From Escherichia coli (GTDB lineage: Bacteria; Pseudomonadota; Gammaproteobacteria; Enterobacterales; Enterobacteriaceae): a DNA stretch of 64,000 nucleotides. The stretch's first letter is position 1. Each line of letters opens with the position of its first letter. The notes below the pieces were generated by a model, which was not told the origin of the DNA, made no database searches, and saw only the letters and a list, made by a program, of their open reading frames with translations. A program made the position numbers and the translations under genes. The stretch lies in NCBI RefSeq assembly GCF_036507355.1, contig NZ_AP027877.1. One strand, written 5' to 3'. Positions 17,793 to 34,135 of this stretch are shown here, piece after piece.

Positions 17793-18608
17793 TTATTTAA
17801 ACCCTTTCTGCTGCTTTATCAGCTCATACGCCTGCTGAATTTCCTGCGCTTTCTGCTTCGCCATCTCCATCATCTCAGGCGGCAAACCTTTCGCTACCAA
17901 CTTATCGGGATGGTGTTCACTCATCAGCTTACGGTAGGCACGTTTGATGGTGGTCGCATCATCCGTAGGCTTCACGCCCAGCACATTACAGGCATCTTCC
18001 AGCGTCGGGCCACGCTGCGCTTGCTGCCAGTTACCACCGCCAGATTGCTGCTGATAACCGCCGCCAAACTGTGCACCGCCCTGCATCATGCGTAAAAACT
18101 GGTCAAACTGGGCACGGGAGATCCCTAATTCTTCAGCAATAACATACAGCACCGCCCGTTCATTCGGGTGCAGTGAACCATCAGCAAATGCCGCCTGAAT
18201 CTGGATCTCCAGAAACATACGAATTAAGTCAAAACGACCAAAGCAGACACTGCGAAACTGGCGCATCTTTTCGCGCAGCGGGTAATTGTCTGATTTTCCC
18301 ACCCGGAACGCGTTTTGCGCCGCAGTACGGGAAGCGCCATGAAGGTTCATTCGGTCCATCAACTGGCTGGCGATATGAATATCAGCCTCCGTGACGCGAC
18401 CTTTGGATTTGGTTAAATGCCCCATCACTTCAAAAGTGGTGGCAAAAAACAGCGCCTGACGCTCACGCTGGTTGGCGAACCACGCCATTTTACGGCTACG
18501 GGCTTTATCAAACATATGGCCAATTAACAGGCCTAACACTACGCCCCAAAAGCCGCCGCCCATCAGTAAGGCCACGGCCACGCCAATGATTTTTCCCCAA
18601 TACTGCAT
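17793..18608 (-). CDS. djlA: DnaJ-like membrane co-chaperone DjlA
   Basis: 271-aa product [22 protein letters not shown]... with C-terminal J-domain HPD motif; ORF track start trimmed. Confidence 0.93.
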
Positions 18609-18862
18609 ATATTCCCCAAATCGACACACGGATATCAGGGCTATCTCCCACAATATAAAGGTGCTTTTACCGTTTTCCGGCTGCGGTCAATTGTGGGACA
18701 TCGCCTATAATTTGCATTATCATACCTGTCATTCAATGCCGTGCCTAACACCACTGACGCTATTCGGACAGGATTAACACTAGCGTAGAGATGACGAGTA
18801 CGTTAGTCTCTGACCGTTTGTCACGCGCAACGTTACCGATGATGGAACAATAAAATCAACGT

Positions 18863-21217
18863 ATGAAAAAACGTATCCCCACTCTCCTGGCCACCATGAT
18901 TGCCACCGCCCTTTATAGTCAACAGGGACTGGCAGCCGACCTCGCCTCACAGTGCATGTTGGGCGTGCCAAGCTATGACCGTCCTCTGGTACAGGGCGAT
19001 ACCAATGACTTACCCGTGACTATCAATGCTGACCACGCGAAAGGGGACTACCCGGATGACGCCGTGTTTACTGGCAGCGTGGATATCATGCAGGGTAACA
19101 GCCGTCTGCAGGCCGACGAAGTGCAGCTCCATCAAAAAGAGGCACCAGGACAACCGGAGCCGGTACGTACCGTTGATGCGCTCGGTAATGTCCATTACGA
19201 CGATAACCAGGTGATCCTCAAAGGGCCGAAAGGCTGGGCGAATCTGAACACCAAAGATACCAACGTCTGGGAGGGTGATTACCAGATGGTGGGTCGCCAG
19301 GGACGCGGTAAAGCGGACCTGATGAAACAACGTGGCGAAAACCGCTATACCATTCTGGATAACGGTAGCTTTACCTCCTGTCTGCCGGGTTCTGACACCT
19401 GGAGCGTGGTAGGTAGCGAAATTATTCATGACCGCGAAGAACAAGTGGCCGAAATCTGGAACGCCCGTTTTAAAGTTGGCCCGGTGCCAATCTTCTACAG
19501 CCCCTATTTGCAGTTACCGGTGGGTGACAAACGCCGCTCTGGTTTCTTGATCCCGAACGCCAAGTACACCACCACCAACTACTTTGAGTTCTACCTGCCA
19601 TATTACTGGAACATCGCGCCAAATATGGATGCCACCATCACGCCGCATTATATGCATCGTCGTGGCAACATCATGTGGGAGAACGAATTCCGCTACCTCT
19701 CCCAGGCGGGCGCTGGCTTGATGGAACTGGACTATCTGCCTTCAGATAAAGTCTATGAAGATGAACACCCGAACGATGACAGTTCACGTCGTTGGTTATT
19801 CTACTGGCAACACTCCGGGGTCATGGATCAGGTGTGGCGTTTCAACGTCGACTACACCAAGGTCAGCGATCCTAGCTACTTCAATGATTTCGATAACAAG
19901 TACGGTTCCAGTACTGACGGCTACGCAACGCAAAAATTCAGCGTTGGCTATGCGGTGCAAAACTTCAATGCCACCGTTTCAACCAAGCAGTTCCAGGTCT
20001 TCAGCGAACAGAACACCAGTAGCTACTCGGCAGAGCCGCAGTTAGACGTTAACTACTACCAGAATGATGTTGGTCCGTTTGATACGCGTATTTACGGCCA
20101 GGCAGTGCACTTTGTTAACACCAGAGACGACATGCCTGAAGCAACTCGTGTTCACCTGGAACCGACCATCAATTTGCCGCTCTCTAATAACTGGGGCAGC
20201 ATCAATACCGAAGCGAAGTTGCTGGCAACCCATTATCAGCAAACCAATCTTGACTGGTATAACTCCAGAAACACGACCAAGCTGGACGAATCCGTTAACC
20301 GCGTAATGCCGCAATTCAAAGTTGACGGCAAAATGGTCTTTGAACGCGATATGGAAATGCTGGCTCCGGGTTATACCCAAACGCTGGAACCGCGCGCGCA
20401 GTATTTGTACGTGCCGTATCGCGATCAGAGCGACATCTATAACTACGACTCGTCTCTGCTGCAATCTGACTACTCTGGCCTGTTCCGGGACCGGACTTAC
20501 GGCGGTCTTGACCGTATTGCCTCCGCTAACCAGGTGACGACCGGTGTCACATCTCGCATATATGATGATGCTGCCGTTGAACGTTTTAATATTTCCGTTG
20601 GTCAAATCTACTATTTCACGGAGTCTCGCACTGGCGATGACAACATAACATGGGAGAATGACGACAAAACGGGCTCACTGGTGTGGGCAGGCGATACTTA
20701 CTGGCGTATCTCCGAGCGTTGGGGATTGCGTGGCGGGATTCAGTACGATACACGTCTGGATAACGTAGCGACCAGTAACTCCAGCATTGAATACCGTCGG
20801 GATGAAGACCGTCTGGTACAGCTGAATTACCGTTACGCCAGCCCGGAATATATTCAGGCTACGCTGCCTAAGTACTATTCCACTGCTGAGCAATATAAGA
20901 ATGGTATTTCGCAGGTAGGTGCTGTCGCCAGCTGGCCAATTGCCGATCGTTGGTCCATTGTTGGGGCCTACTACTACGACACCAATGCGAACAAGCAAGC
21001 TGACTCTATGTTAGGTGTGCAATACAGCTCCTGCTGCTATGCAATTCGCGTCGGTTACGAGCGGAAGCTGAACGGTTGGGATAACGATAAACAACATGCG
21101 GTATATGACAACGCAATCGGCTTTAACATCGAACTTCGCGGCCTGAGCTCCAACTACGGTCTGGGTACGCAAGAGATGCTGCGTTCGAACATTCTGCCGT
21201 ATCAAAACACTTTGTGA
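18863..21217 (+). CDS. lptD: LPS assembly outer membrane protein LptD (Imp/OstA)
   Basis: 784-aa product with signal peptide [24 protein letters not shown]. Confidence 0.95.
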
Positions 21218-21269
21218 TTTGTTGATTTACCACGTAATCCGCAGTGCGGTTAATTGAAATGGAAAAAGT

Positions 21270-24363
<3,094 letters not shown>

Positions 24364-24365
24364 CG

Positions 24366-24743
24366 ATGATCAATTCGCCCCGAGTGTGTATTCAGGTTCA
24401 AAGCGTCTACATTGAGGCTCAATCTTCACCTGATAATGAACGTTACGTTTTTGCTTATACCGTAACCATACGCAATCTGGGGCGAGCGCCAGTGCAGTTG
24501 TTGGGGCGTTACTGGCTGATCACCAATGGCAATGGCCGTGAAACCGAAGTCCAGGGCGAAGGAGTGGTTGGCGTCCAGCCACTTATCGCGCCTGGCGAAG
24601 AGTACCAGTACACCAGCGGTGCAATCATTGAAACCCCGCTGGGCACCATGCAGGGTCACTACGAAATGATCGATGAAAATGGCGTCCCTTTCAGCATCGA
24701 CATTCCCGTATTCCGACTCGCCGTTCCCACACTCATTCATTAA
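24366..24743 (+). CDS. apaG: ApaG (DUF525) protein
   Basis: 125-aa product [19 protein letters not shown]...; ORF track start trimmed. Confidence 0.9.
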
Positions 24744-24749
24744 AAGAAT

Positions 24750-25598
24750 ATGGCGACATACCTTATTGGCGACGTTCATGGTTGTTACGATGAACTGATC
24801 GCATTGCTGCATAAAGTAGAATTTACCCCTGGGAAAGATACCCTCTGGCTGACGGGCGATCTGGTCGCGCGCGGCCCGGGTTCGCTGGATGTTCTGCGCT
24901 ATGTGAAATCCTTAGGCGACAGCGTACGTCTGGTGCTGGGCAATCACGATCTGCATCTGCTGGCGGTATTTGCCGGGATCAGCCGCAATAAACCGAAAGA
25001 TCGCCTGACACCGCTGCTGGAAGCGCCGGATGCCGACGAGCTGCTTAACTGGCTGCGTCGCCAGCCTCTGCTGCAAATCGACGAAGAGAAAAAGCTGGTG
25101 ATGGCCCACGCAGGGATCACGCCGCAGTGGGATCTGCAGACCGCCAAAGAGTGCGCGCGCGATGTAGAAGCGGTGCTGTCGAGTGACTCCTATCCCTTCT
25201 TTCTCGACGCTATGTACGGCGATATGCCAAATAACTGGTCACCGGAATTGCGGGGGCTGGGAAGACTGCGGTTTATCACCAACGCCTTTACCCGTATGCG
25301 TTTTTGCTTCCCGAACGGTCAACTGGATATGTACAGCAAAGAATCGCCGGAAGAGGCCCCTGCCCCACTGAAACCGTGGTTTGCGATTCCTGGCCCTGTC
25401 GCTGAAGAATACAGCATCGCCTTTGGTCACTGGGCATCGCTGGAAGGCAAAGGTACGCCGGAAGGTATTTACGCGCTGGATACAGGCTGTTGCTGGGGCG
25501 GTTCATTAACCTGCCTGCGCTGGGAAGATAAACACTATTTTGTCCAGCCGTCGAACCGACATAAGGATTTGGGTGAGGGAGAGGCGGTCGCGTCTTAA
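24750..25598 (+). CDS. apaH: Diadenosine tetraphosphatase
   Basis: 282-aa product [16 protein letters not shown]... with metallophosphatase motifs GDLVARG and GNHD. Confidence 0.94.
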
Positions 25599-25909
25599 AT
25601 CCCGTCGAGCATAAAATCTAATGCTCCTTTAATCAACGTTCGGTGCGCGCTGGCATCGCAAAATTTCGTTCCCAGCGCGTTAACTGGAACAGTTGCAGTC
25701 TCATGCGTCATGAGCACATATTCTTTGCCGTCTACCAGTAAAAGGATTGGGTTAAGCCGTTCTGGTGGGCGAATACGGATAAATCGTTCAATAGGTGTTA
25801 ATGGAATAACAATACGGCGATTAATCACACCAATAATGTCGCTGGTAACATCGATAACAAAGGGAAACGCGGCGTTCCTGCTGCGACTGCGGTATACCGT
25901 AAATTGCAT
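25595..25909 (-). CDS. ccdB: CcdB-family toxin (chromosomal ccd locus)
   Basis: 104-aa product [27 protein letters not shown]... similar to F-plasmid CcdB (MQFKVYTYKRES...DVQSDIID...); immediately downstream of ccdA with a 2-bp gap; stop overlaps the apaH stop. Confidence 0.8.
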
Positions 25910-25911
25910 CG

Positions 25912-26145
25912 CTAGAAGCTCCGGTACTCATCAGAGAAACATCCGGTTTCATCAGCCAATTGATTTAACGCAGCGATAGCTTCTGCGTTCTCTTCACGCC
26001 AACGTGTTGCTGCATGTTTTTTAAGTTCAGCATTGAGCGCAACCGTAAGGGTGGCGCTCATATTTAAGCCTGCATCACGAGCGCGATTGACTAACTCACG
26101 GTCGACGGTGACGGTCACACTTTGTGTGGTACGTTTTGCAGTCAT
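25912..26145 (-). CDS. ccdA: CcdA-family antitoxin (chromosomal ccd locus)
   Basis: 77-aa product with ...SVTVTVDRELVNRAR...RWREENAEAIAALN... resembling F-plasmid CcdA; small acidic C-terminus; operon with ccdB. Confidence 0.78.
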   Translation of the reverse strand: MTAKRTTQSVTVTVDRELVNRARDAGLNMSATLTVALNAELKKHAATRWREENAEAIAALNQLADETGCFSDEYRSF

Positions 26146-26230
26146 GATATCGTGCTCCTGTACAATTTATACGTCTAGTATACACGGATATCTGCACGTA
26201 TCAGTGATGCCGGAATTCTAATATACAAAA

Positions 26231-28756
<2,526 letters not shown>

Positions 28757-28764
<8 letters not shown>

Positions 28765-29287
28765 GATGGGCCTCCTGCCATTCCAGCAGACGTTGCTTAT
28801 AGTGGCGCGCCTGCCCTTCGAGGGTTTCGTCGTCACAAATAAAGGTGCAGTGCATGGCAAACGGAGGCAGCCAGTTCAGCCCGCAGTAGATTGCCGTCGC
28901 CTGTAGCGGCTGCGACAGCACATCAAAGCCCGGATGCGCACCAATTTCAAAATGGCTTTCCCCGCCGCCGGTCGTCACCGCCCACAGCAAATGTTTGCCA
29001 TGCAGCGCCGTGCCGCCGTGACCGTAAGCCCAGCCGTGGGAGAAGACTTTATCGATCCAAAGTTTAAGGAGCGGTGGAATGCTGTACCACTGCATCGGGT
29101 GCTGCCAGACGATCAGATCGGCGCGAGACAGCGCCTCCTGCTCGGCGGCAATATCGATATTGAAGTCAGGATAGAGTTGATAAAGAGAGCGAATTTCGAC
29201 GCCATCCAGCGTCCTTGCCTGTTCAAGCATCCGTTTATTCGCATGGGAATGATGCGGATACGGATGCGCATAAATTATGAGGATCAT
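28757..29287 (-). CDS. kefF: KefC ancillary flavoprotein (quinone oxidoreductase) KefF
   Basis: 176-aa product [23 protein letters not shown]...; overlaps kefC start. Confidence 0.93.
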
Positions 29288-29397
29288 AGTTATTAGCCCG
29301 CGTGTTTACGCCTTTGTTTTCCCACAAAGTGTAGTCATATATTCACGCGGCTTATAGTCAATAATATTGATTCAGAAAAGAGAGAAATCTGAACAAA

Positions 29398-30729
29398 TTA
29401 TCCCATTCTCTGCCCGCGGATCGTCATATTGCTGGTCTGCGCCAGTGACATTCCTCGAGTCTCCGGGGCAAACGCTACGGAAATCAACAAGCCAAACAGC
29501 GAGATACCCGCCCCCATTAGCATCGTGTTACTGATACCGTAATTATTGATAAAGATCGGCAGTGCCCAGGTCGAAACAATGGTGCCAATACGACTTAAGG
29601 ACATAATCACGCCCACGGCAGAGGCGCGGATATCCGTCGGGAAGAGTTCATTAGGATAGAGCCACTACAAATTACCCGGCCCGCCAGAGAAAAAGGCATA
29701 CACCGCAAAGGCCATCACTACCAGCCAGATCCCCATATCCGGGATTAGCCCCAAAACCGCCAGCGCCAGCGTCATCATGGCAAAGCTGCCAATCAACAAT
29801 GGACGCCGTCCGGCAGTGTTTAGCCACAGCATCGGCGGAATACAGCCGAGCATAAAGAACAGGCTAATCACCACATTCCCCAGCGCCGCGTTTTTGCCAA
29901 CCCCCAATCCCAACAAACCAACGATTTGCGGGCCAAAGGTGTAAATGGCGAACATTGGGATCACCTGGCAGGTCCAGATGGCGGCAACAAACAGAACAAA
30001 AGGAAAATGGCGGCGATTAAACAGATCGCGAAAACGGGTTTGCTGCGGCTGCTCTTCATCGAAAGCCACCGGTTCGCCAAACAGTTTTATCATCATCTCT
30101 TCGCACTCTTTTACTCGCCCTTTGCGTAATAACCAGCGGGGAGATTCAGGCAGTTCGAATCGACCAATCAAAATCAACAAACAGGGGATCGCTGCGCTAC
30201 CCAGCATCCAGCGCCAGCCGCCTTCCACATCATAAAGCCAGTAGCCGACCAGATCGGCGCAGGTCGCGCCGACATACCACATGGCGGCGATAAAGCTGAT
30301 GGAAAATGCCCGCTGACGGGTACTGGAGAACTCGGTGATCATTGAGGTGGCGATGGGATAATCTGCACCGATGACAATGCCGATAAGTACCCGCATCACC
30401 AACAGTTCGACGGGGGATGAAACAAACATCGTCGCCACCGATATCACACCGATGGCGATGATATCAATGAGGAACATTTTGCGCCGTCCGACTTTATCGG
30501 AAATATAGCCAAACAGCGATGTGCCAACGAACAGCCCGGCGAGCGTTCCCGCGCCCAGCAAGCCAATCCAGTCAGCGTCCAGTTTTAGCGCCGGAGTCAG
30601 TTGCTCCAGCGCCACGCCAATCATTACCAGTACATAACCATCCAGAAACGGACCACCGCTTCCCCACAGCAAAATGCGGCGGTGAATAGAGGAGAATTTA
30701 AGATCGTCAAAGTTTCTGGACGGTTGCAT
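29398..30729 (-). pseudogene. yaaU: MFS transporter YaaU disrupted by an in-frame stop codon
   Basis: Two same-frame ORFs (354 aa at 29665..30729 and 72 aa at 29398..29616) together span exactly the 443-codon length of K-12 yaaU; TAG at 29665..29667 (cta on + strand). Confidence 0.75.
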
Positions 30730-30787
30730 GGATTATTCCTGTTTTTTTGCAATGAGAGTCAGTACGGCGTTACGTATCAAACCAACA

Positions 30788-31075
30788 TCAGCCGTAACGG
30801 AACTCCACACCAAAGGTGCCGCGCGGGTATTCCCACTGTTCCAGCGCCGACCCCAGCCCCAGAATGCGACAGGTGCCGCACTCCAGACATCCGGCGTAAT
30901 CGAAGCGCACACTGCCGTCATCCTGCTTCTTGTACAGACCTGCGGGGCACGCTTTCACCAGCAGCTCCAGGGCCTGTTTATCGGCATCGGCCTTCACAAC
31001 AATGTGTGGATGCTCTTCATCGACATTGAATTTATTGACGCCCAGTTTGACGTCCACATTGACGGGAGAAGTCAT
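30788..31075 (-). CDS. fixX: Ferredoxin-like protein FixX
   Basis: 95-aa product with Cys cluster. Confidence 0.92.
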   Translation of the reverse strand: MTSPVNVDVKLGVNKFNVDEEHPHIVVKADADKQALELLVKACPAGLYKKQDDGSVRFDYAGCLECGTCRILGLGSALEQWEYPRGTFGVEFRYG

Positions 31076-32358
31076 AAAACGGTCACTCCTTTCATGCCAT
31101 CCTTGATCAGATTGATGAAGCCCACTTTCTTGCCGTGGCGGAGGATTTTCTTGCGCATCAGTTCCGGCGCACTGCCGTCAATGGTGAACAGGTCACGCGC
31201 CACGCCCACCGCCAGTTCCGGGTAGCCGCTAAACATGCGTGGGTTATCAAGGAACGCCGGTAGTTTCTGGTACATGCGCATATCGCGCAGCGGGCCACTC
31301 TCCAGATGCTGACGATATTCCGCGAGTTTTTGCTTACTGAAATCGCCGCTTTTCATCGCTGAAAGCACGGTTTTTGCTGCAGCTTCCCCGGCGGCAATCG
31401 CCAGATCCATACCGCGAATGGTAAAACCGAGGTTCATACACATTCCGGCGGCATCACCGGCAATCAATACGCCGTCACCGACCAGCTCCGGCAGCATGTT
31501 GATGCCTGCTTCCGGCACTACGTGAGCGGAATATTCCACCAGCTTGCCACCCGCGATCAGCGGTGCAACGGCCGGATGTTGTTTGAAATCTTCCAGCATT
31601 TGCGGCACCGATTTTTTTGCGTCATGCAGATGATGCAGACCACAAACCAGCCCCAGCGACAGGGTATTTTCATTGGTATAAAGGAAGCCGCCGCCCATCA
31701 GGCTATTGGTGGGCGATCCCGCAAACAGACAAGCCGCGCCCTGATTACCCTGCAACTGAAAACGGTCTTCGATTACCGACTTCGGTAACTCGATCAGTTC
31801 CTTCACGCCAACCGCCACATCCGTCGGTTTAACGCGTTTTGCCATCCCCAACTTTTCGGCAAGGATGGAGTTCACCCCATCAGCAAGGATCACCGTTTTC
31901 GCTTCAATCACATCGCCATCGGCTTCTACACCGACGACTTTGCCATCGCGCTGTACGAGGTTATCGACGCGGATCCCGGTAATTAACTGCGCGCCCGCTT
32001 CTTCGGCCTGCTCCATCAACCAGGCATCAAATTTACTGCGCAAAACGGAGTAAGAACGCTGGGATGGCGAGGTTTCGTCACCGTTGCAGTAGTCCATAGT
32101 CATCGCTGACTTTTCCGTCATAAACGCGAGTTTTTCATGGGTGATCAGGCGTTCTACGGGGGCGGATTCGGCGAAACCTGGAATAATGTGTTCCAGACTG
32201 TGGGCATAGAGACGCCCGCCAGTAACGTTCTTGGCACCTGCGGAATTGCCACGCTCGATAACTAACACTTGCGCCCCTTCGCGGGCGAGCACCAGTGCGG
32301 CAACCGAACCGGCAAGCCCTGCACCGACGATGATGGCGTCAAAGATATCTTCGGACAT
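31072..32358 (-). CDS. fixC: Flavoprotein oxidoreductase FixC
   Basis: 428-aa product with N-terminal FAD-binding GAGLAGS motif. Confidence 0.93.
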   Translation of the reverse strand: MSEDIFDAIIVGAGLAGSVAALVLAREGAQVLVIERGNSAGAKNVTGGRLYAHSLEHIIPGFAESAPVERLITHEKLAFMTEKSAMTMDYCNGDETSPSQRSYSVLRSKFDAWLMEQAEEAGAQLITGIRVDNLVQRDGKVVGVEADGDVIEAKTVILADGVNSILAEKLGMAKRVKPTDVAVGVKELIELPKSVIEDRFQLQGNQGAACLFAGSPTNSLMGGGFLYTNENTLSLGLVCGLHHLHDAKKSVPQMLEDFKQHPAVAPLIAGGKLVEYSAHVVPEAGINMLPELVGDGVLIAGDAAGMCMNLGFTIRGMDLAIAAGEAAAKTVLSAMKSGDFSKQKLAEYRQHLESGPLRDMRMYQKLPAFLDNPRMFSGYPELAVGVARDLFTIDGSAPELMRKKILRHGKKVGFINLIKDGMKGVTVL

Positions 32359-32408
32359 AAGAGCTCCCTGTCAGCGGCAGAGCCGTAATGCAGCCCTGCC
32401 AGAGTGGA

Positions 32409-33350
32409 TCAACGCGCTAAAGCTGCGGTCAGTGCCGGAAGGATCTTCACGGCATCGCCAACAATGCCGTAATCCGCGTACTGGAAGATCGGCGCATTTT
32501 TATCTTTATTGATGGCGAAAATGGTTTGCGATGCATTAGCACCAACCATGTGCTGGATCTGCCCGGAGATCCCCACCGCCAGATACAATTCAGGTTTCAG
32601 CATCAGGTTGGAGATACCGACATAGCGTTCGTGCTCCATCCATTTTTCGTTTTCCGCCACCGGACGAGAACAGGCCAACTCCGCACCTATCGCCTTGCAA
32701 AGCTGTTCTGCCAGCGCAATGTTCTCTTTGCTGCCAATGCCGCGACCGACGCTGACCACCAGACGGGCTTTGTCGAGATCGACGCTGTTGCTCTGGCGCG
32801 CCTGGGTTGCCGTGCGGGTAATCGCCACAGCCGGAGCCTGCCACTCCACGGTGTGCGTTTCGCCAGTGCGTGACGCGTCTGGCTGAGCCGCATCGAACGT
32901 GCCACTGCTGATGGTCAGTACCGCATACGGCGTGGCAATGCGTTCTTCGCCAATCGCCAGGCCGCCGTAAACCATGTGTTTCACTGTTGCTTTACCGTCC
33001 TGTACGCTGACGGTGCTGGCATCGTTAGACACCGCCGCTTTAAGGCGATAACCCAGTTTTGCCGCCAGTAATTTGCCGCGACGGGTGTTTGGCAACAACA
33101 CCAGGCCGTCTGCGCCGTGCTGGCGAATAGTGTCAGCCATGACACTGGCGTAATCTTCGATCATCCGATCGTCCGGTTTGCCGTTTAATTTCCAGACATG
33201 ATTAGCGCCGAGCTGGATTGCCTGTGCGCCGTCGGCATCATTGAGGACAAAGGTGTTGATTTGATTAGCTAAAGCCTGCGCACCGTTCATCAGTTCCGGC
33301 AGACGAGAAGGGGTATCGCTGAATACCCAGACTTGAGAAAACGTGTTCAT
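32409..33350 (-). CDS. fixB: Electron transfer flavoprotein alpha-like subunit FixB
   Basis: 313-aa ETF-alpha-like product. Confidence 0.93.
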
Positions 33351-33364
33351 AGCATCCCCTGTAA

Positions 33365-34135
33365 TTAAATGACTTTGCGAAGATTTTCAGCAAATGCGGC
33401 GATCTGTTCTTCGCCGTCGCCTTCAATCACGATGCGCTGACGCTCGCGCTGTTTCGGCGCGGCAACCTGTTGTTCTGACCAGGCTGCCTCTGCGTTAAAA
33501 CCGATATCCGCCGCCGACCATACCTGGACTGGCTTTTTCGCCGCGCCGAGAATGGCTTTCATCGAAGGTATTTGTGGGGAGTTGATATCAGTGGAAACAG
33601 CAACAACCGCAGGCAGCGGAATGCTTAAGGTTTCGGTTTCATCTTCCAGTTCGCGCTCAACGGTGAGGGTATCTGCCGTCAGGGAGATAATTTTGCTGAC
33701 GCCGTTAACTGCCGGAATATTGAGGATTTCGCCCACCAGCAGACCAACCTGCTGGGCATAAAGGTCGGAAGAACCATCGCCACAGAGGATCAGATCAAAG
33801 CCTGCTTTCTGGGCGGCTGCAGCCAGTGCGCTCGCCGTTTGTTGCGGCAGTGCCTGCTCGAACTGGTCATCAATCACCACAATCAGTTCATCCGGGCCGC
33901 GCGATAGCACATCTTTACGCCCTTTGGCGTTGGTCAGGGCTTTACCGCCCACACTTAAGGCTGTCACCTGCGCCTCTGCTGCCTGTTGCTTTAGCTGGCA
34001 AGCCGCTTCAATAGCGTTGAGATCGTATTGGCTTATTTTGGCATCGGCTTTGCTGAAGTCTAATGAACCATCAGCATTATTGACCGCAATATCCTGTTCA
34101 TCAGGCACGCACTTATAGCAAGTAATAATCTTCAT
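33365..34135 (-). CDS. fixA: Electron transfer flavoprotein beta-like subunit FixA
   Basis: 256-aa product [18 protein letters not shown]...; ORF track start trimmed. Confidence 0.93.

What the first reader, a model, noticed from the sequence alone, without database searches (positions are those of the whole stretch)
25595..25630. CcdB C-terminus differs from the gyrase-contacting WGI tail of plasmid CcdB
The chromosomal CcdB here ends ...DFMLDGI, whereas F-plasmid CcdB ends ...NLMFWGI as I recall. The C-terminal Trp-Gly-Ile residues of F CcdB are reported as critical for gyrase poisoning. Trp to Asp at the equivalent position could mean reduced or altered toxicity. The alignment is by eye and may be off.
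Basis: inference. Interest (0 to 1): 0.35.

Follow-up and report, generated by a model that had tools for sequence, protein, structure and literature searches.

The report
Known chromosomal CcdB toxin tail variant
This is the already characterised chromosomal ccdO157 toxin-antitoxin pair of E. coli. Its CcdB toxin does end in Asp-Gly-Ile rather than the F-plasmid Trp-Gly-Ile, but Asp is the conserved normal state for its subfamily and Trp is the F-plasmid peculiarity.

Summary
Window 25595-25909 (- strand) encodes a 104-aa CcdB ending ...[12 protein letters not shown] gapless end alignment to F-plasmid CcdB (...KNAINLMFWGI) puts Asp102 opposite Trp99, with Gly-Ile retained. The protein contains no Trp at all.

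- The locus is the published ccdO157 islet between folA and apaH. Its CcdA is identical to EDL933, and its CcdB differs from EDL933 by S44I only.
- Reviews report that the O157 toxin still poisons gyrase, with lower toxicity and about fivefold lower gyrase affinity than F CcdB.
- The change is not a degenerate loss of Trp. Asp at this position occurs in 102 of 103 full-length close homologues from many enterobacterial genera.
- Across 136 family representatives, Trp occurs once (the F type). Thr, Gln, Ser and Asp dominate.
- The closest solved structure is V. fischeri CcdB, which ends ...DFLITGI and binds GyrA Arg462 through Asp99. That Asp is conserved here as Asp98, and in 132 of 136 representatives.

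The tail therefore looks like the family-typical alternative gyrase contact. Real decay looks different: about 20% of ccd-carrying E. coli genomes have a Gly95 stop codon that deletes this tail. The finding is ordinary and already known.

The parts
25595..25909 (-). ccdB: a 104-aa CcdB toxin gene including its stop codon. It differs from E. coli O157:H7 EDL933 CcdB only by S44I.
   Evidence: ORF list. Pfam PF01845 E 5e-31. PDB sequence hits to V. fischeri and F CcdB. Comparison with EDL933. AF2 model pLDDT 86, TM 0.87 to 4elz_C.
25598..25630 (-). Codons K94-I104 ([11 protein letters not shown]). This is the end of the C-terminal helix and the tail, the region the finding refers to.
   Evidence: Direct reading of the sequence. 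Gapless alignment to F residues 91-101 and V. fischeri residues 95-105.
25604..25606 (-). GAC = Asp102, the residue aligned with F CcdB Trp99 and V. fischeri CcdB Thr103.
   Evidence: Asp in 102 of 103 close homologues. This column is highly variable family-wide.
25616..25618 (-). GAT = Asp98, aligned with V. fischeri CcdB Asp99 (which H-bonds GyrA Arg462) and with F CcdB Asn95.
   Evidence: Alignments. PMC5086665 for the Asp99-Arg462 contact. Asp in 132 of 136 family representatives.
25625..25627 (-). GGA = Gly95. In about 20% of ccd-carrying E. coli genomes this codon is TGA, which deletes the ten-residue tail. It is intact in the window.
25912..26145 (-). ccdA: a 77-aa CcdA antitoxin gene, identical in protein sequence to EDL933 CcdA. 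Its stop codon lies 2 nt before the ccdB ATG.
   Evidence: Pfam PF07362 E 1.3e-26. Identity to EDL933. RefSeq annotation of matching loci.
26177..26204 (-). Sigma-70-like promoter match (CTGATA-16-TATACT) upstream of ccdA. It is a candidate ccd promoter, based on a consensus match only.
   Evidence: One site was found and 1.3 are expected by chance, so this is weak evidence.
24750..25598 (+). apaH, the flanking core gene, convergent with ccdB. The two stop codons overlap in TTAA at 25595-25598.
26231..26710 (-). folA, the flanking core gene upstream of ccdA. Coordinates are inferred from the 480-nt RefSeq folA.

Best explanation
The window carries the known chromosomal ccdO157 type II toxin-antitoxin islet (ccdA-ccdB) inserted between folA and apaH.

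Its CcdB belongs to an enterobacterial 104-aa subfamily whose C-terminal signature is x-D-F-x-x-D-G-I. Both solved CcdB-GyrA complexes show the C-terminal helix and tail of the CcdB dimer docking on the GyrA dimer around Arg462. F CcdB does this with Asn95 and a Trp99 stack. V. fischeri CcdB does it with Asp99 hydrogen bonds and has no Trp.

The window protein keeps the family-typical Asp (Asp98) and the Gly-Ile end. It carries a second conserved Asp (Asp102) one helical turn later, on the same face, at the spot where F has Trp99.

The most likely mechanism is therefore gyrase poisoning through carboxylate-Arg462 contacts instead of Trp stacking. That gives a functional toxin that is somewhat weaker on E. 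coli gyrase than F CcdB.

Shown here: the sequence, the alignment, the conservation, the predicted fold and the locus identity. Taken from literature: the O157 toxin targets gyrase with lower toxicity and about fivefold lower affinity, and V. fischeri CcdB contacts Arg462 through Asp99. Inferred: Asp98 and Asp102 contact Arg462 in this protein.
For: - Family and operon: Pfam CcdB and CcdA hits.
- Locus identity: position between apaH and folA. DNA is 99.7% identical to EDL933, CcdA is identical and CcdB differs by S44I.
- Alignment: the best PDB sequence match is V. fischeri CcdB at E 1.2e-16, tail AAIDFLITGI against [11 protein letters not shown] CcdB aligns at E 3e-11 with a gapless tail.
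- Fold: AF2 model pLDDT 86 with a C-terminal helix at 87-102. The top structural match is 4elz_C (CcdBVfi:GyrA14Vfi) at TM 0.87. F CcdB and its GyrA14 complex 1x75 match at TM 0.83-0.87.
- Active site: seven of the nine F CcdB active-site residues named in PMC5062330 are identical here (Q2, F3, Y6, S22, I24, G100, I101). Only N95 and W99 differ.
- Conservation: Asp at -3 and Asp at -7 each occur in 102 of 103 full-length homologues of 52-96% identity. These come from Escherichia, Klebsiella, Salmonella, Citrobacter, Xenorhabdus, Photorhabdus, Serratia, Yersinia, Dickeya, Pectobacterium, Morganella and Pantoea.
- Family-wide: Asp at the N95/D99 column in 132 of 136 representatives, Gly at -2 in 133 of 136, and Trp at the W99 column in 1 of 136.
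- Literature: V. fischeri Asp99 makes two H-bonds to GyrA Arg462 and there is no Trp rearrangement (PMC5086665). The O157 toxin targets gyrase, with lower toxicity and fivefold lower affinity (PMC5543033; PMC10886550).
Against: - No structure or mutagenesis of an Asp-Gly-Ile CcdB was found, and PDB holds only F and V. fischeri CcdB. The Asp102 contact is therefore an inference.
- The window allele carries S44I relative to the tested EDL933 protein. Its toxicity is not documented in what I could read.
- The primary papers (Wilbaux 2007, Mine 2009, De Jonge 2010 and 2012, Gupta 2017) were not available in the library. The experimental statements rest on reviews and on my recollection of the abstracts.
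- Reviews cite Mine et al. 2009 for neutral evolution of chromosomal ccdB within E. coli. That sits uneasily with strong constraint on the tail, although the cross-genus conservation argues for constraint.
- The family survey covers only the best 150 of 756 hits.
Confidence: 0.8

Rival explanations
1. Asp102 is a degenerative change. The chromosomal toxin is decaying under neutral evolution, and loss of Trp99 has crippled gyrase binding. This is the strong form of the first reader's idea.
For: - Reviews cite Mine et al. 2009 for decay and neutral evolution of ccdO157.
- CcdB-O157 has lower toxicity and about fivefold lower gyrase affinity.
- W99 substitutions such as W99C abolish GyrA14 binding in F CcdB.
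Against: - Asp is present in 102 of 103 homologues across more than ten genera. Drift would not preserve it.
- Trp is the rare state in the family, 1 of 136.
- V. fischeri CcdB lacks Trp and is a nanomolar gyrase binder.
- The O157 toxin still kills and still needs an antitoxin.
- Real decay alleles are nonsense mutations: Gly95 stop in 413 of 2016 genomes, and a Cys84 stop pseudogene.
Confidence: 0.07
2. The conserved Asp102 serves mainly antitoxin recognition or CcdA-driven release from gyrase, that is, toxin-antitoxin specificity, rather than gyrase contact.
For: - Cross-neutralisation is asymmetric. CcdA-F neutralises CcdB-O157, but CcdA-O157 does not neutralise CcdB-F. Specificity determinants therefore differ between the two systems.
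- Conservation alone cannot say which partner selects for the residue.
Against: - In both solved complexes the aligned position lies in the gyrase-binding helix and tail (F Glu87-Ile101, V. fischeri Glu91-Ile105).
- In the yeast-display study, F CcdB mutants at gyrase-interacting positions, W99C among them, lost gyrase binding while CcdA binding stayed like wild type.
Confidence: 0.08
3. This particular allele is inactive for a reason unrelated to the tail, for example S44I or weak expression, so the tail chemistry has no consequence in this strain.
For: - S44I distinguishes it from the tested EDL933 protein.
- From my recollection of the Mine et al. 2009 abstract, about 29% of natural variants have an inactive toxin.
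- The only promoter evidence is a weak consensus match.
Against: - The ORF is intact and CcdA is intact and identical to EDL933.
- Position 44 is variable in the family (S, G, P, R). It aligns with Leu in both structurally characterised toxins, so a hydrophobic residue there is tolerated.
- The I44 allele is shared by 70 complete genomes, including the O145:H28 lineage.
Confidence: 0.1

Closest known systems
ccdO157 (chromosomal ccdAB of E. coli O157:H7 EDL933, the folA-apaH islet; Wilbaux et al. 2007, Mine et al. 2009, Gupta et al. 2017)
   Same: Same genomic position and same gene order. DNA is 99.7% identical, CcdA is identical, and CcdB matches at 103 of 104 residues with an identical tail.
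   Different: One substitution, S44I, a minority allele found in 70 of 1978 ccd-carrying genomes. The flanking apaH also differs by one residue (Q to H).
Vibrio fischeri chromosomal CcdB (PDB 3JSC, 2KMT, 4ELY, 4ELZ)
   Same: It is the best sequence and fold match among solved structures. It shares the A-[IL]-D-F motif with the Asp that H-bonds GyrA Arg462, has no Trp in the tail, and ends in Gly-Ile.
   Different: Only about 37% identity. It has Thr, not Asp, at the Trp99-equivalent position, and two extra residues in the N-terminal loop.
F-plasmid CcdB (PDB 3VUB, 1X75)
   Same: Same fold (TM 0.83-0.87) and same Pfam family. Seven of nine mutationally defined active-site residues are identical, including Gly100 and Ile101. 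It has a CcdA partner and the same target, gyrase (per the literature).
   Different: F has Asn95 and Trp99 where the window protein has Asp98 and Asp102. F is plasmid-borne, mediates post-segregational killing and binds gyrase more tightly.
Chromosomal ccd of Erwinia chrysanthemi (Dickeya), the anti-addiction module of Saavedra De Bast et al. 2008
   Same: Dickeya CcdB clusters in the same Asp-Gly-Ile subfamily. P0059 from Dickeya zeae is 58% identical and has the tail AIDFLIDGI. It is a chromosomal ccd system.
   Different: Its CcdA is reported to neutralise F CcdB, whereas CcdA-O157 does not. I did not verify the sequence of the strain used in that study.

Membership tests
CcdB toxin family (Pfam PF01845) of ccdAB type II toxin-antitoxin systems | Sequence matches the CcdB profile above the curated threshold | tested here: met
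   107.4 bits against a cut-off of 28.6, covering profile positions 1-101 of 101
CcdB toxin family (Pfam PF01845) of ccdAB type II toxin-antitoxin systems | CcdB/MazF-type barrel with a C-terminal alpha-helix | tested here: met
   AF2 model pLDDT 86 with a helix at 87-102. TM 0.87 to 4elz_C and 0.83-0.87 to F CcdB. MazF structures follow at TM about 0.7. This is a predicted model, not a solved structure.
CcdB toxin family (Pfam PF01845) of ccdAB type II toxin-antitoxin systems | Cognate CcdA antitoxin gene immediately upstream on the same strand | tested here: met
   PF07362 at 93.1 bits. The ccdA stop lies 2 nt before the ccdB ATG.
CcdB toxin family (Pfam PF01845) of ccdAB type II toxin-antitoxin systems | Poisons DNA gyrase through GyrA (Arg462 region) and is toxic without CcdA | not testable with these tools
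   Reviews report this for the EDL933 protein, which differs by one residue. This allele has not been tested.
F-plasmid-type CcdB gyrase contact (Trp99 stacking on GyrA Arg462, Asn95 H-bond) | Trp at the third residue from the C-terminus | tested here: not met
   Asp102 occupies that position and the protein contains no Trp
F-plasmid-type CcdB gyrase contact (Trp99 stacking on GyrA Arg462, Asn95 H-bond) | Asn at the position equivalent to F Asn95 | tested here: not met
   Asp98
F-plasmid-type CcdB gyrase contact (Trp99 stacking on GyrA Arg462, Asn95 H-bond) | C-terminal Gly-Ile | tested here: met
   G103 and I104
V. fischeri-type (alternative) gyrase contact | Asp on the C-terminal helix at the position of V. 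fischeri Asp99, which H-bonds GyrA Arg462 | tested here: met
   Asp98 aligns with V. fischeri Asp99 (ALDF against AIDF). The contact itself is described in PMC5086665. Whether it forms in this protein was not tested.
V. fischeri-type (alternative) gyrase contact | Small polar residue (Thr) instead of Trp at the third position from the end | tested here: not met
   Asp102. This defines a separate Asp-Gly-Ile subgroup, seen in 11 of 136 family representatives and 102 of 103 close homologues.
ccdO157 genomic islet | Inserted between folA and apaH in place of the 77-bp REP-containing spacer of K-12 | tested here: met
ccdO157 genomic islet | Near identity to the EDL933 ccdAB sequence | tested here: met
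   2 differences in 681 nt. CcdA matches at 77 of 77 residues and CcdB at 103 of 104.

The most novel reading that the evidence does not exclude
The invariant Asp-x-x-x-Asp pair (Asp98 and Asp102, giving four carboxylates per CcdB dimer) could form a third way of clamping the two GyrA Arg462 side chains. It would be distinct from both the F Trp sandwich and the V. fischeri single-Asp contact. It might tune affinity, gyrase species specificity or ease of CcdA-driven release in the enterobacterial chromosomal subfamily. No structure of this subfamily exists.
Probability: 0.3. Interest if true: 0.3.

Novelty: already known. Interest (0 to 1): 0.12.

Why it matters
It matters little beyond annotation. 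The locus is a textbook chromosomal toxin-antitoxin system, and it was already published that CcdB proteins use alternative residues to contact gyrase.

There are two modest points of value. First, Trp99 should not be used as a marker of CcdB activity, because Asp at the N95/D99 position and the Gly at -2 are the conserved family features. Second, functional decay at this locus shows up as nonsense alleles that cut off the tail, not as this substitution. A structure or mutagenesis of an Asp-Gly-Ile CcdB bound to GyrA14 would fill a small gap.

Tried and rejected
- Primary papers. I tried to read Wilbaux 2007 (PMC1855815), Mine 2009 (PMC2666520), De Jonge 2010 (PMC2820787), Gupta 2017 (PMC5585702) and Xu 2020 (PMC7293176). 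None is held. De Jonge 2012 was never looked up by id; it appeared only in reference lists, without a PMC id.
- A substitute Trp. I considered that a Trp elsewhere might replace W99. This is rejected because the protein has no Trp.
- Misalignment. I considered that the by-eye alignment might be shifted. This is rejected because BLASTP, phmmer and MAFFT all give the same gapless tail alignment.
- Complex modelling. I considered modelling the CcdB-GyrA14 complex. I did not attempt it because the structure tool folds single chains and returns no coordinates or contacts.
- Promoter and terminator scan. It gave only chance-level matches.
- Source strain. The best match over 16 kb is 99.3% (strains A30 and 042), so the exact strain is not in the complete-genome set.

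Full report
**1. What is in the sequence**

The finding's coordinates, 25595-25630, cover the stop codon and the last eleven codons of a minus-strand ORF at 25595-25909. The tail reads K94-G-A-L-D98-F-M-L-D102-G-I104-stop. The 104-aa product matches Pfam CcdB (PF01845) over the whole profile at 107.4 bits, against a cut-off of 28.6.

The ORF immediately upstream, 25912-26145 on the same strand, matches CcdA (PF07362) at 93.1 bits. The pair sits between apaH (+, 24750-25598) and folA (-, from 26231).

**2.

Three methods give the same gapless alignment of the C-terminal 44 residues: BLASTP against F CcdB (36% identity, E 2e-18), phmmer against PDB chains, and a 33-sequence MAFFT alignment. D102 aligns with W99, G103 with G100, I104 with I101, and D98 with N95.

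The window protein contains no tryptophan, so the proposed refutation (another, structurally equivalent Trp) does not apply.

An AlphaFold2 model has mean pLDDT 86 and a C-terminal helix at residues 87-102. Its best PDB matches are V. fischeri CcdB bound to GyrA14 (4elz_C, TM 0.87) and F CcdB (TM 0.83-0.87). D98 and D102 are four residues apart on that helix, and so on the same face, as N95 and W99 are in F CcdB.

**3. Identity of the locus**

- About 2020 of 5426 complete E. coli genomes carry this ccdAB pair between folA and apaH. The others, K-12 among them, have a 77-bp REP-like spacer instead.
- The window differs from O157:H7 EDL933 at 2 of 681 nt. CcdA is identical, and CcdB differs by S44I.
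- This is therefore the published ccdO157 system. Reviews describe it as a genomic islet between folA and apaH.
- Reviews also say its toxin targets gyrase and its antitoxin is degraded by Lon. CcdA-F neutralises CcdB-O157 but not the reverse.
- The toxin shows lower toxicity and about fivefold lower gyrase affinity than CcdB-F (PMC5543033 citing Gupta et al. 2017). PMC10886550 calls it 'somewhat attenuated'.
- I could not read the primary papers.

**4. Is Asp a loss of Trp?**

No. Among 103 full-length homologues (90%-identity cluster representatives, 52-96% identical to the query, from at least a dozen enterobacterial genera), the third residue from the end is Asp in 102. The seventh from the end is also Asp in 102.

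I then looked at 136 full-length 50%-identity cluster representatives, taken from the best 150 of 756 hits:

| Column (F numbering) | Residues observed |
|---|---|
| W99 | Thr 53, Gln 23, Ser 15, Asp 11, His 8, Leu 7, Trp 1 (the F type) |
| N95 | Asp 132 |
| G100 | Gly 133 |

F CcdB, with Asn95 and Trp99, is therefore the outlier. The window protein has the family-typical Asp98 plus a subfamily-invariant Asp102.

**5. Mechanistic reading**

In the F complex, GyrA Arg462 stacks between the two Trp99 side chains (PMC1635281). Saturation mutagenesis identifies Q2, F3, Y6, S22, I24, N95, W99, G100 and I101 as the active site (PMC5062330).

In the V. fischeri complex, Arg462 makes two hydrogen bonds to CcdB Asp99. 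Only three of ten gyrase-contacting helix residues are shared with F, and there is no Trp rearrangement (PMC5086665 summarising De Jonge et al. 2012).

The window protein keeps seven of the nine F active-site residues and the V. fischeri Asp. I infer that Asp98, and probably Asp102, pair with Arg462. That is a carboxylate-guanidinium contact in place of the Trp stack. The inference has not been tested.

**6. What real decay looks like here**

The tail 61-mer (25590-25650) is exact in 1254 of 2025 ccd-carrying genomes. Another 413 of 2016 carry a single change, equivalent to C25627A. It turns Gly95 (GGA) into TGA and removes exactly [10 protein letters not shown]. An example is strain H105, annotated as a 94-aa CcdB.

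A further allele has a stop at Cys84 and is annotated as a pseudogene. The protein search also returned N-terminally frameshifted and internally deleted forms. This matches the 'decay' literature. The window allele is intact.

**7. Verdict**

The system is already known, so interest is low.

**Caveats**

- The S44I allele has no functional data that I could access.
- The first two residues of the V. fischeri sequence used in alignment A1 were assumed. The PDB alignment shows residues 3-105 only.
- Experimental claims rest on reviews.

Noticed in passing
window 25595-25599: The convergent genes apaH and ccdB overlap by 4 nt, with their stop codons sharing a TTAA palindrome. Homology with ccd-less K-12 runs up to 25599. 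The ccdB stop codon and two bases of its last codon therefore lie in DNA shared with the empty site, so the islet junction sits exactly at the end of ccdB.
   Followed up: partly
window 25575-25598: The ApaH C-terminus differs from K-12: ...[10 protein letters not shown] (282 aa) against ...DLGEAAAS (280 aa). This is a 6-nt difference next to the islet junction. EDL933 has the same extended tail.
   Followed up: partly
window 25779 (ccdB codon 44): The window CcdB has Ile44 where EDL933 has Ser. The exact 61-mer carrying this allele occurs in 70 of 1978 ccd-carrying complete E. coli genomes, including the O145:H28 lineage. I could not find its effect on toxicity.
   Followed up: partly
window 25625-25627 (Gly95 codon); L004 401-461: In 413 of about 2016 ccd-carrying complete E. 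coli genomes, this codon is TGA. That truncates CcdB to 94 aa and deletes the whole gyrase-contacting tail. These alleles are still annotated as 'CcdB family protein'.
   Followed up: yes
L005 406-720: Strain Ec-U4-19 has a different inactivating allele, a stop at Cys84 plus K94E, and is annotated as a pseudogene. The protein database also holds frameshifted forms (111 aa with a foreign N-terminus) and internally deleted forms (95-98 aa).
   Followed up: partly
window 26146-26230: The 85-nt spacer between the folA stop and the ccdA start holds one weak sigma-70-like match (26204-26177). It also contains AT-rich partial palindromes (TGTACA...TATACGTCTAGTATACA) that might be the CcdA/CcdB operator.
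   Followed up: no
window 18000-34000: The best match of this 16-kb stretch to any complete RefSeq E. coli genome is only 99.3% (strain A30, then 042). The ccd islet alone is 100% identical to a few strains (TR01, PS10-3, MB53). The source strain is not in that collection, and the region looks mosaic.
   Followed up: no
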